The position numbers and the translations under genes were made by a program. Shown here piece after piece: positions 12,878 through 23,945 of a stretch of 54,574 bases of DNA. The notes under the pieces are model-generated. The model saw only the letters and a list, made by a program, of their open reading frames with translations. It was not told where the DNA came from and did no database searches. Position 1 is the stretch's first letter; each line of letters begins with the position of its first letter. The DNA lies in NCBI GenBank assembly GCA_022701925.1, contig JAKONM010000205.1, positions 1-54,574 of the forward strand, given 5' to 3'. This DNA is from Microbacteriaceae bacterium (lineage in GTDB: Bacteria > Actinomycetota > Actinomycetes > Actinomycetales > Microbacteriaceae).

Positions 12878-13951
12878 ATGGACCTGTTCAGCCCGATCGA
12901 CCTGGGCGACCTGCACCTCGCGAACCGCGTGGTCATGGCACCGCTCACCCGCGTCCGCAGCGGCGCCGAGGGCGTGCCGACGCCGCTCGTCGCCGAGCAC
13001 TACGCCCAGCGCGCCTCGGTGGGCATGATCATCAGCGAGGGCGTCTACCCCGGCCCGGAGTCGCGGGGGTACTTCGGCCAGCCCGGCATCGTCACCGACG
13101 AGCAGGAGGCCGGCTGGAAGCGGGTCGCCGACGCCGTGCACGCCGAGGGCGGCACGATCGTGATGCAGCTGATGCACAGCGGACGCGTCTCGCACCCCGA
13201 CCTCAGCGGCTCCGACCGCACCCTGGCGCCCAGCGCCGTCGCGATCGACGGCGACGTGCACACGCAGCACGGCAAGAAGCAGCACGTGGTGCCGCACGCC
13301 CTGACCGCGGACGAGCTGGCCGTGGTGCGCGAGGAGTTCGTCACGGCCGCCCGTCGCGCCCGCCGCGCCGGGTTCGACGGCGTGGAGCTGCACGGCGCCA
13401 ACGGCTACCTGCTGCACCAGTTCCTGTCGCCCGCGTCGAACGTGCGCGACGACGCCTGGGGCGGCTCGCCGGAGGCGCGTGCCCGCTTCGTGATCGAGGT
13501 CGCGCAGGCCGTCGTCGCGGAGGTCGGCGCCGGCCGCGTCGGCATCCGCATCTCGCCCGCCAACCAGGCGCAGGACGCGTTCGAGACCGACGAGGCCGAG
13601 ACGCGGGCGACGTACCGCGCGCTGCTCGACGGGCTGCGCCCGCTGGGGCTGGCGTACCTGTCGGTGCTGCACGCCGAGCCGGCGGGTGCGCTGGCGCAGG
13701 ACCTGCGCGAGTGGTTCGGCGGCAAGGTGGTCGTGAACAGCGGCTTCGGGTCGCCGACCTCCCGCGACGAGGCCGTGGCGCTGATCGAGCAGGCGCACGC
13801 GGACGCCGTCGCCGTGGGCCGCGCGGTCATCGCGAACCCGGACCTGGTCGAGCGCTGGAAGCAGGGGGCGCCGGAGAACGAGCCGCGGCCGCAGCTCTTC
13901 TACTCCGAGGGCGCCGAGGCCTACACGGACTACCCCCGCCTCTCCGCCTGA
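12878..13951 (+). CDS. Old-yellow-enzyme alkene reductase (NemA-like)
   Basis: NRVVMAPLTR, GFDGVELHGANGYL, YTDYP; GGAGG RBS. Confidence 0.95.
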   Translation: MDLFSPIDLGDLHLANRVVMAPLTRVRSGAEGVPTPLVAEHYAQRASVGMIISEGVYPGPESRGYFGQPGIVTDEQEAGWKRVADAVHAEGGTIVMQLMHSGRVSHPDLSGSDRTLAPSAVAIDGDVHTQHGKKQHVVPHALTADELAVVREEFVTAARRARRAGFDGVELHGANGYLLHQFLSPASNVRDDAWGGSPEARARFVIEVAQAVVAEVGAGRVGIRISPANQAQDAFETDEAETRATYRALLDGLRPLGLAYLSVLHAEPAGALAQDLREWFGGKVVVNSGFGSPTSRDEAVALIEQAHADAVAVGRAVIANPDLVERWKQGAPENEPRPQLFYSEGAEAYTDYPRLSA

Positions 13952-13953
13952 CC

Positions 13954-14075
13954 CTCGCGGATCCGCAGATCCTGCGCGGGTCCGCACTTCCAGGCCGACA
14001 CGCTGCTTCCGGAGCCTCCGGGAGCGGCGTGTCGGCCTGTTCCTGCGGATCCGCGAGTCAACTGCGGATCCGCGG
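13954..14075. repeat. Nested-palindrome REP/REPIN-like element B
   Basis: 15-bp inverted repeat CTCGCGGATCCGCAG (13954-13968 / 14043-14057), extra core at 14062-14075, long inner hairpin CAGGCCGACACGC...GCGTGTCGGCCTG (13991-14039). Confidence 0.85.
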
Positions 14076-14089
14076 AGCAGCGCAGCAGC

Positions 14090-14278
14090 GGTGAGGTCCC
14101 CGAACCCGCCCTCGGCGTCCTGGTCAGCACGTGGTGATGCGGTGTGCCCGATGCGCGGTCACCGGTGAGCGGTGCTGGGCTGAATGTGCGCGGCTCCCGC
14201 CTGCTCGCTGCCCGTCGCGATCGGAGTGGGCCGATGACCGACGACCCGGCGGTGTGTGCTCGCCCCGGGGCGCCTACC
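14090..14278 (-). ncRNA. Candidate structured RNA downstream of the DIP1984-family gene
   Basis: Non-coding gap; ends can pair (GGUAGGcgCCCCG / CGGGGaCCUcACC); six tandem heptamers with an invariant A at 14136-14177. Confidence 0.55.
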
Positions 14279-14281
14279 GAC

Positions 14282-14752
14282 TCACCGCTGCTGCAGGTCG
14301 GCCTCCCAGTTCACGCGCTGGATCGACGCCTCCAGGTCGCGGAGGGTCTTCGCCACCTGGTCCGCCTCGCGGCGCAGCTGCGCGACGGGCAGCGCGGGCA
14401 TCCACCGCAGCTCGCTGCGCAGCTGACGAGCGCCGCCCCAGGAGGATCCGGCGGCGGAGTCGGCGGCCGCGGTGAGCAGGGCGTGCCGCCGGCGCAGCTC
14501 GTCGCGGCGGGCCAGCACCGCGGTCACCGGCTCGCCGTCCACGGTGCGGATCGCCGCGTTCGTCAGGTTGATCGCGACGACCAGCCCGGTCAGGTGCTGC
14601 AGCACGCGGTCGACCTCGGCCAGCAGCGCGGTCGCGTCCTCGGCGGGCTCCTCGCCCTCCTGGTACCGCGCGTTCTGCACGATGCGCGCCTGCAGCTGCT
14701 CCACCTGCCGCTGCAGCGCGGCCCGCTCGATCAGCGCCTCCGCCAGCCTCAT
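14282..14752 (-). CDS. DIP1984-family (septicolysin-like) coiled-coil protein
   Basis: MRLAEALIERA...QEGEEPAED...INLTN...RSEL...IQRVNWEADL matches the family signature. Confidence 0.9.
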   Translation of the reverse strand: MRLAEALIERAALQRQVEQLQARIVQNARYQEGEEPAEDATALLAEVDRVLQHLTGLVVAINLTNAAIRTVDGEPVTAVLARRDELRRRHALLTAAADSAAGSSWGGARQLRSELRWMPALPVAQLRREADQVAKTLRDLEASIQRVNWEADLQQR

Positions 14753-14886
14753 CCCCGCAGGGTATCGAGCGGCGGCGCCACGGATGAAGGAGGAGACGCC
14801 GGTGGCGGTGTCGAGACCGACCGCTGCCCGGCCGGTCGTGCCGGGATCTCCTTCATTCGTGCAGGTCGGCTGTGGGACGGTGCCGC

Positions 14887-23833: not shown

Positions 23834-23945
23834 CGGTCTCGCGGATCCGCACTCCCTGCGCGGATCCGCAGATCTCGGGCGACACGCCGGCCGGAGGGCC
23901 TTCCTCCCCGGCGTGTCGGGCAGGAGCTGCGGATCCGCGAGACCG
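23834..23945. repeat. Nested-palindrome REP/REPIN-like element C
   Basis: Perfect 18-bp inverted repeat CGGTCTCGCGGATCCGCA (23834-23851 / 23928-23945); inner CGACACGCCGG / CCGGCGTGTCG (23880-23890 / 23908-23918). Confidence 0.88.

What the first reader, a model, noticed from the sequence alone, without database searches (positions are those of the whole stretch)
14090..14752. DIP1984-family gene followed by a candidate structured RNA with a 7-nt periodic tract
Seen: 3 nt after the stop begins a ~190-nt non-coding stretch whose ends can pair (14266-14278 with 14090-14102). It has an inner hairpin GGGUCG/CGGCCC and a possible alternative or pseudoknot pairing CCCACUC/GGGCGGG. It also has six exact-period heptamers on the minus strand: CAGCACC GCUCACC GGUGACC GCGCAUC GGGCACA CCGCAUC. 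An A recurs every 7 nt (plus-strand T at 14173, 14166, 14159, 14152, 14145, 14138). A period of 7 is not a codon effect. Established: DIP1984-family proteins are uncharacterised and helical. Unverified recollection: similar sequence follows DIP1984 genes in other bacteria. Inference: a protein+ncRNA module in which an oligomer binds one heptamer per subunit (TRAP-like), or a type III toxin-antitoxin-like or defence RNP.
Basis: partly seen in the sequence, partly recalled or inferred. Interest (0 to 1): 0.85.

Follow-up and report, generated by a model that had tools for sequence, protein, structure and literature searches.

The report
New tRNA-linked RNA beside DIP1984 gene
A folded RNA of about 210 bases, absent from the Rfam catalogue, with several pseudoknots and a row of adenines about seven bases apart, follows a small helical protein gene of unknown function in many bacteria and phages, often inside tRNA gene arrays next to RNA-repair genes, so the two likely form an undescribed RNA-protein particle that is predicted to act when tRNAs are damaged.

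Summary
Confirmed and extended. Window 14752-14282 (-) is a DIP1984/DUF6847 gene; 14294-14082 (-) is a conserved structured RNA with no Rfam match. A covariance model finds it after the gene in 79 of 80 actinobacterial and 77 of 80 metagenome loci (all four misses are contig ends) and in exactly the 4 of 61 related genomes that have the gene. Long-range helices covary strongly; the 7-nt adenine period is family-wide (z 12.9) but not rigid. Context: 30 of 80 metagenome loci and 8 of 20 viral loci lie in tRNA arrays or beside RtcB, other RNA ligases, Ro60 or RtcR; 55 of 86 RNAs carry a tRNA T-arm, which this copy has lost. The protein is predicted to self-associate. Best reading (0.45): a Ro60/Y-RNA-like but non-homologous particle acting in tRNA damage or translation stress; binding, expression of this copy and function are untested. 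The scan noted this gene-RNA pair before on other DNA (six notes).

The parts
14282..14752 (-). DIP1984/DUF6847 gene, 156 aa, four long helices; stop codon 14284-14282 lies inside the RNA closing stem
14759..14764 (-). possible -10 hexamer 6 nt before the ATG (leaderless transcript; inferred)
   Evidence: sequence; A..T hexamer 6-7 nt before the start in 20 of 55 actinobacterial loci, 2 of 54 others; the sigma-70 scan lists no site here
14082..14294 (-). structured non-coding RNA, about 210 nt
   Evidence: model R1 hit 14084-14291, 117.8 bits (this copy was in the training set); covariation
14281..14294 (-). P1 closing stem, 5' strand (overlaps last codons and stop)
   Evidence: 14 bp perfect with 14095-14082; family mean helix 6.8 bp against 3.2 for swapped partners
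14274..14278 (-). near-invariant GGUAG in the internal loop opposite the G-rich box
   Evidence: absent together with the G-box in L251, L142, L239, L246 (by eye)
14256..14273 (-). P2/P3 long stem, 5' strand, with a G.A pair and two bulged G
   Evidence: top covarying pairs, G scores 45-116 against null 95% maximum 37; helix 4: 11 of 11 pairs with two-sided change, 97% paired
14228..14253 (-). hairpin P5 (14247-14228) whose loop (14240-14237) can pair with 14253-14250 (H-type pseudoknot a)
   Evidence: P5 covaries; pseudoknot full pairing 33 of 86 against 0.12 swapped
14205..14220 (-). hairpin P6; loop GGGC (14213-14210) pairs with GCCC 14180-14177 (pseudoknot b)
   Evidence: 72 of 86 full Watson-Crick against 0.12 swapped; GAGC/GCUC in 11
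14192..14201 (-). GNRA hairpin in the slot where 55 of 86 homologs carry a tRNA T-arm
14136..14177 (-). A-heptamer tract (unit about G-Y-A-H-N-G-N); looser upstream A's at 14181 and 14187
14133..14135 (-). invariant ACC closing the tract
14115..14130 (-). P3/P2 long stem, 3' strand
14098..14113 (-). G-rich box GAGGG-N-GGG-NNN-GGGG, no conserved pairing partner found
14082..14095 (-). P1 closing stem, 3' strand

Best explanation
The gene and the conserved folded RNA behind it travel as one unit, and they likely form a ribonucleoprotein in which predicted dimers of the helical protein would coat the row of adenine heptamers while the RNA's tRNA-like and G-rich parts would engage tRNAs or tRNA-handling enzymes during tRNA damage or translation stress. 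Shown: the RNA fold, its strict coupling to the gene, the T-arm subdomain in most copies, and the placement in tRNA arrays and RNA-repair operons in several lineages and phages. Predicted: protein self-association. Inferred: (1) the RNA is cut from the gene's transcript or from a tRNA polycistron and closed by P1; (2) protein binds the heptamer tract through conserved basic and aromatic residues outside the dimer interface; (3) the particle works like Ro60-Y RNA, as a tether or decoy for tRNA nucleases and repair ligases. This copy has lost the T-arm, so it is a reduced, stand-alone form.
For: Coupling: RNA after the gene in 79 of 80 genome loci, 77 of 80 metagenome loci and 14 of 19 viral loci searched; same 4 of 61 relatives hold gene and RNA. 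Fold: 41 of 48 pairs with two-sided change, 85.6% paired against 36-44% for slid partners; tree-based null. Acts as a separate RNA: tandem second copies in L199, L248 and L143, spacers to the gene up to 326 nt, tRNA genes directly abutting its 3' end in L139, L244, L252, L140, L178, L181. Context: RtcB in 15, Rnl2-type ligase in 6, Ro60-like in 3, RtcR in 1, DRB0094-type ligase start in 1 of 193 loci; three or more tRNA genes in 22 of 80 metagenome and 8 of 20 viral loci (7 contigs) against 3 of 1156 windows of the own genome; the label needs at least 8 changes on starred branches. Such arrays with RtcB and HNH genes are induced by translational stress (PMC8421152, passages). tRNA elbow: 49 of 55 RNAs with a T-loop have UGG before P6 against 7 of 31 without. 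Protein: model pLDDT 94.9; four-copy prediction 0.73 against best control 0.02, mark reached by 20 of 30 solved pairs and 1 of 23 single chains, runs agree in at least 80% of contacts, pLDDT at least 82 (may be from memory of 3kdq); R10, R109, E114, D131, R138, Q145, N148, W149 are at least 90% conserved and not in the listed interface. A homologous locus is transcribed: ABUW_RS19620 fills 78 rows of a chimera table in A. baumannii AB5075 (PMC11472050 supplement).
Against: No binding, processing or function has been measured. None of 80 actinobacterial genome loci, nor this window, has a tRNA array or repair gene within 4 kb; this copy lacks the T-loop. 50 of 80 metagenome loci show neither (many are short), and the 80 are the best hits to one query, so they include kin. 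The T-loop/GG link gives only 4 independent pairs on starred branches (never significant). tRNA arrays collect unrelated RNAs too (GOLLD, ROOL; PMC12286853 passages), so the context may reflect shared processing, not shared function. The chimera table counts the gene, not the RNA, and includes uninduced samples, so it shows abundance only. Heptamer spacing varies (6/8 or 7/7) and the bases after the second A can pair upstream in 27 of 86, so the tract may be structural, not a protein track. Three viral loci (L246, L255, L256) have the gene without a model hit.
Confidence: 0.45

Rival explanations
1. The RNA is the working part: a ribozyme or tRNA-capturing RNA (its GGUA loop pairing with tRNA 3' RCCA as in RNase P, or forming a G-quadruplex junction with the G-box), and the protein is only its chaperone or scaffold.
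For: GGUA and the G-box are the most invariant bases and sit across one internal loop; both are absent together in four loci (L251, L142, L239, L246, by eye); the linker between G-tracts takes a 9-nt insert in L258; RNase P uses G292-G293-U294 for RCCA (PMC11143913 passages); the protein resembles no enzyme fold.
Against: The module is dispensable in those four loci while the heptamer tract and P3 stay; GGU could equally pair with the RNA's own invariant ACC (no covariation either way); no RNA without the gene was found.
Confidence: 0.2
2. A type III toxin-antitoxin-like addiction or abortive-infection pair: the protein is toxic unless bound by the RNA.
For: Patchy two-part module (4 of 61 relatives; the same slot holds an unrelated gene in G017); on 342 Acinetobacter plasmid records; a good sigma-70 site 6 nt before the RNA in the Acinetobacter form (10 of 12, best of 5 sites, 5.2 expected by chance).
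Against: No ToxN-like, nuclease or defence-model match; the RNA lies downstream and is one complex fold, not tandem 34-57-nt repeats (type III layout recalled); carriage in phage tRNA arrays and repair operons fits help for translation better than poisoning.
Confidence: 0.15
3. A cis-acting 3' element of the mRNA: the protein binds its own 3' UTR to control its stability or translation (TRAP-like feedback).
For: The RNA was always found downstream, usually within 50 nt; the closing stem covers the stop codon here, and the ORF runs into the RNA in 6 of 164 loci.
Against: Tandem duplicate RNAs, spacers up to 326 nt, a T-arm and four conserved modules are far more than feedback needs, and it leaves the protein without any other job.
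Confidence: 0.12
4. A selfish RNP: the protein packages or protects its own transcript through the 3' structure and the unit spreads by hitch-hiking.
For: Minimal two-part content, varied neighbours in most loci, tRNA-like part as in viral 3' ends (analogy, recalled).
Against: Single copy per genome, no polymerase or reverse transcriptase among recurrent neighbours, no capsid-like fold, no target-site repeat seen against G017.
Confidence: 0.07

Closest known systems
DIP1984 family / Pfam DUF6847 (PDB 3kdq, Corynebacterium diphtheriae; often labelled 'septicolysin' in databases)
   Same: The protein is a member; 33% identity and TM-score 0.89 to 3kdq.
   Different: No function and no partner RNA found in the searches run: DIP1984 1 paper, DUF6847/PF20935/NF038048 0, 3KDQ 2 unrelated. 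The 'septicolysin' label does not fit a 156-aa all-helical protein.
Ro60 (Rsr) - Y RNA / YrlA ribonucleoproteins
   Same: Protein gene with an adjacent ncRNA closed by its own ends, a tRNA T-arm domain, and RtcB/RtcR context (PMC4201824 passages).
   Different: Protein is not a TROVE ring; no Rfam Y RNA hit; GNCGAAN(0-1)G in 14 of 164; Ro60-like gene nearby in 3 of 193; heptamer tract, pseudoknots and G-box have no Y RNA counterpart.
GOLLD and ROOL RNAs
   Same: Ornate RNAs of phages and prophages near tRNA islands (PMC12286853 passages).
   Different: Those are several times longer and assemble without protein; this RNA is about 210 nt, tied to one gene, and gives no Rfam match.
Type III toxin-antitoxin (ToxIN, CptIN, TenpIN) and TRAP (both recalled)
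   Same: Small protein with a pseudoknotted or repeat-bearing RNA.
   Different: No sequence or fold match; repeat unit is 7 nt inside one larger fold; RNA lies after the gene.

Membership tests
DIP1984 / DUF6847 proteins | Score above curated cut-offs of NF038048 and PF20935 | tested here: met
   164.5 bits (cut-off 70) and 156.6 bits (27)
DIP1984 / DUF6847 proteins | Fold of 3kdq | tested here: met
   TM 0.89, rmsd 2.0
Bacterial Y RNA (YrlA) - Ro60 | Ro60 ortholog within 4 kb on the same strand | tested here: not met
   3 of 193 loci by tblastn with two Ro60-like queries; not in this window's locus
Bacterial Y RNA (YrlA) - Ro60 | GNCGAAN(0-1)G motif near the 5' end | tested here: not met
   14 of 164 RNAs; this copy reads GGCGAG
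Bacterial Y RNA (YrlA) - Ro60 | tRNA-like domain with T-arm | tested here: inconclusive
   T-loop in 55 of 86, with D-loop-like UGG in 49 of them; absent in this copy; no D-stem or acceptor stem shown
Bacterial Y RNA (YrlA) - Ro60 | Rfam family match | tested here: not met
   no match at gathering score in the window or in 19 loci other than tRNA
Type III toxin-antitoxin | ToxN/CptN/TenpN endoribonuclease (recalled) | tested here: not met
   Pfam, PADLOC and Foldseek give only DUF6847 and 3kdq
Type III toxin-antitoxin | Tandem 34-57-nt antitoxin repeats upstream of the toxin (recalled) | tested here: not met
   single downstream RNA with 7-nt units
Type III toxin-antitoxin | Toxicity relieved by the RNA | not testable with these tools
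   needs expression test
TRAP-type repeat-binding rings | (G/U)AG repeats at 5-nt period and beta-sheet ring (recalled) | tested here: not met
   lag 5 z 0.0, lag 7 z 12.9; all-helical model
GOLLD / ROOL | Rfam match and length above 500 nt | tested here: not met
   GGUA to G-box 142-236 nt in 164 RNAs
GOLLD / ROOL | Location near tRNA islands | tested here: met
   family level: 22 of 80 metagenome and 8 of 20 viral loci; not this window
tmRNA / IRES-like coding RNA | Conserved reading frame after the pseudoknot | tested here: not met
   tract lengths fall in all three frames, 16/25/45 of 86
Septicolysin (cholesterol-dependent cytolysin, recalled) | Thiol-cytolysin domain, about 500 aa | tested here: not met
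   156 aa, only DUF6847

The most novel reading that the evidence does not exclude
A widespread, previously undescribed class of ribonucleoprotein: a helical protein oligomer threaded on a 7-nt adenine ladder presents an RNA that recognises tRNA directly, with a tRNA-elbow mimic on one side and an RNase P-like GGUA/G-quadruplex site for the CCA end on the other, and so captures, shields or repairs cut tRNAs for bacteria and phages independently of Ro60.
Probability: 0.2. Interest if true: 0.95.

Novelty: categorically new. Interest (0 to 1): 0.82.

Why it matters
It assigns a partner RNA and a testable role to a protein family with a crystal structure but no function, found in many bacterial groups, phages and 342 Acinetobacter plasmid records where it is often mislabelled as a toxin. 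New ornate bacterial RNA classes with a dedicated protein are rare; one that sits in tRNA arrays with repair ligases and carries a tRNA mimic would be a second, non-homologous solution to what Ro60-Y RNA does and may explain part of how phages and bacteria survive tRNA-cleaving attacks. The parts are small and soluble, so binding, structure and phenotype are directly testable.

Tried and rejected
Rfam at gathering and E-value thresholds: nothing on the RNA (weakest hint Tymovirus tRNA-like element, 18.7 bits against 40, in L264). Single-sequence folding is uninformative. Public runs: no RNA holder listed for the window; three contig sets were laid. Coding or tmRNA-like reading rejected. A separate promoter before the RNA is not conserved family-wide. 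RNA without gene: pattern scans of viral contigs gave 34, 119 (80 scored; scan covered 5 of 64 parts) and 4 stretches, and only the known contig was real; a G-box-only hit in G191 lies in coding DNA and is chance. Genome RNA searches score only 15-37 candidates a genome, so absence is soft. L019 (gene, no RNA) has an assembly gap of 100 N after the gene. PADLOC, BFVD and the ESM Atlas gave no functional match. VIA-align wide search did not run. Papers: supplements of PMC11109978 and PMC5737381 could not be read, so a listing of this motif there is not excluded; main text of PMC11109978 has no DIP1984 or septicolysin; PMC6182133 mapped to the chromosome only and its supplement had no pAB2 entry; PMC13141974 and bioRxiv 2023.09.04.556232 passages gave nothing.

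Full report
Observation. The minus-strand ORF 14752-14282 encodes a 156-aa DIP1984/DUF6847 protein, 33% identical to the functionally unknown structure 3kdq. The stretch behind it holds the hairpin and the six heptamers as described. Rfam has no match. Folding the single sequence says nothing (z +1.46). The palindrome at 13956-14074 is a genome-wide repeat (77 matches), not part of the element.

Family. I collected 193 loci with the gene: 80 from genomes (all Actinomycetota), 80 from metagenomes, 20 viral and 13 others from genome handles, plasmids. 167 show the G-rich box; 164 could be cut out; 113 were non-redundant and 86 of these were aligned with MAFFT, blind to structure. A G-test with a tree-simulated null gives 23 pairs above the null's 95% maximum, 19 of them mostly base-paired, marking P2, P3, P5 and P6. 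For a 48-pair structure, 41 pairs change on both sides and 85.6% of cells pair, against 36-44% when partners are slid (the structure was drawn from this alignment, which favours it). The closing stem P1 pairs 14294-14281 with 14095-14082 and covers the stop codon; family mean 6.8 bp against 3.2 for swapped partners. Pseudoknot b (P6 loop with 14180-14177) is well supported (72 of 86 against 0.12), pseudoknot a (33 of 86 against 0.12) and a pairing of the bases after the second tract A with an upstream segment (27 of 86 against 0.09; control units 4 and 6 of 86) less so. Contigs of two studies with close relatives change 14121 so that a C.A mismatch in P2 becomes C-G (table cut).

The heptamer tract. 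A is present at offsets 0 (100%), +6 or +7 (43 each of 86), +14 (93%), +21 (89%), +28 (76%) and 3 nt before the ACC (97%); tract length is 36-39 nt in 85 of 86. Lag-7 autocorrelation has z 12.9. The Acinetobacter form has about two more units (by eye). Lengths fall in all three frames, so it is not a coding template.

Coupling to the gene. Model R1 finds the RNA in 79 of 80 genome loci, 77 of 80 metagenome loci and 14 of 19 viral loci searched. The four genome and metagenome misses and two viral misses are contig ends; L246 has a divergent version by eye; L255 and L256 have a shortened gene and no hit. Among 61 related genomes the same 4 hold gene and RNA (these 4 were in the training set, and only 37 candidates a genome are scored). 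A 151-genome phylum sample gave one more full RNA, again behind the gene. None of 17 genomes of the same genus has it, and in G017 the same slot holds an unrelated gene. Tandem second RNA copies occur in three loci. GGUAG and the G-box are absent together in four loci while P2/P3, the tract and in three of them ACC remain, so the RNA has a core and an accessory terminal module.

Context. All-against-all clustering of flanking ORFs in 128 loci gave RtcB as the commonest recurrent neighbour (11 loci). tblastn over all 193 loci finds RtcB in 15, an Rnl2-type ligase in 6, Ro60-like proteins in 3, RtcR in 1 and a DRB0094-type ligase start in 1. Three or more tRNA genes lie within 4 kb in 22 of 80 metagenome and 8 of 20 viral loci (two of these are one contig), 0 of 80 actinobacterial genome loci and 3 of 1156 windows of the own genome; 30 of 80 metagenome loci have one or the other. 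In one clade the tRNAs lie on the opposite strand upstream of rtcB. On a protein tree the label needs at least 8 changes on starred branches. Long tRNA arrays with HNH and rtcB genes are induced by translational stress in Anabaena (PMC8421152, passages), and phage tRNAs, ligases and TROVE proteins are read as answers to tRNA-cleaving defence (PMC7824862, passages). 55 of 86 RNAs carry a T-loop hairpin; 49 of these have UGG before P6 against 7 of 31 without, the pattern of a tRNA elbow, though only 4 independent pairs are available and the test cannot reach significance. This window's copy has a GNRA hairpin instead and no array or repair gene nearby.

Protein. The model has four long helices (pLDDT 94.9) and matches only 3kdq; BFVD, PADLOC and the ESM Atlas add no function. 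A four-copy prediction scores 0.73 against 0.02 for the best control (mark reached by 20 of 30 solved pairs, 1 of 23 single chains; runs agree in at least 80% of contacts; pLDDT at least 82; possibly remembered from 3kdq). The most conserved residues at both ends and in the RxSE loop lie outside the listed interface and are candidates for RNA contact (inference). 1735 clusters at 50% identity match the protein. In A. baumannii AB5075 the gene's transcript appears in 78 rows of a chimera table and ranks third (PMC11472050; 30 of 78 rows and part 6 of the supplement seen), which shows abundance, not a partner, and does not separate mRNA from RNA.

Mechanism. I commit to a ribonucleoprotein in which protein dimers bind the adenine ladder and the RNA's tRNA-like and G-rich parts act on tRNAs or their nucleases and ligases under stress (0.45). 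My odds on the steps: RNA real about 0.97, bound by the protein about 0.8, role in tRNA damage or translation stress about 0.55 given binding. Rivals: RNA-centred catalysis or tRNA 3'-end capture (0.2; the GGU-RCCA precedent is from PMC11143913 passages), toxin-antitoxin (0.15), cis feedback (0.12), selfish RNP (0.07).

Known or new. It works most like Ro60-YrlA (PMC4201824, passages) but fails membership on protein, motif and Rfam match; it shares only location with GOLLD and ROOL (PMC12286853, passages). Searches for DIP1984 (1 listing, not opened), DUF6847/PF20935/NF038048 (0), 3KDQ (2 unrelated listings), septicolysin with Acinetobacter (22 listings) and RNA-motif terms showed no description of the RNA; two motif-catalogue supplements could not be read. 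Six earlier notes of this scan report the same pair on other DNA; they are not independent evidence, and the counts above are my own. Verdict: real, categorically new pending function, interest 0.82.

Noticed in passing
window 13956-14074 and 23838-23941: A palindromic repeat of about 110 nt (REP- or MITE-like) with 77 matches on both strands in the own genome and copies in genus relatives.
   Followed up: partly
L255 1558-1750, L256, L257 (viral): A C-terminally shortened DIP1984 gene followed by a different short stem with CCAAC-like repeats and no hit to the RNA model; perhaps a reduced or replaced RNA.
   Followed up: partly
L199 4467-4976; L248 2286-2721; L143 to 5025: Two RNA copies in tandem behind one gene.
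   Followed up: partly
L251 4452-4680 (same sequence as plasmid locus L021): Acinetobacter form lacks GGUAG, G-box and P1, has a longer tract and a sigma-70-like site 6 nt before its first stem.
   Followed up: partly
protein P0202: One ORF joining a Barstar domain to DUF6847; single case, could be a read-through artefact.
   Followed up: no
L003, L059, L093, L094, L102, L129: In several Microbacteriaceae the module lies directly before an sbcD/sbcC-like pair; kin, so one event is possible.
   Followed up: no
L169 1270-2619, L170, L173, L177: An AAA ATPase gene follows the RNA in tRNA-array loci.
   Followed up: no
window 12878-13951 (+): Flanking gene looks like an old-yellow-enzyme flavin oxidoreductase by eye (recalled) yet gave no Pfam or NCBIfam hit, where the reference was given on the wrong strand.
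   Followed up: no
control genomes: Deinococcus radiodurans, the model for Ro60-Y RNA, also has a DIP1984 gene; its RNA was not examined.
   Followed up: no
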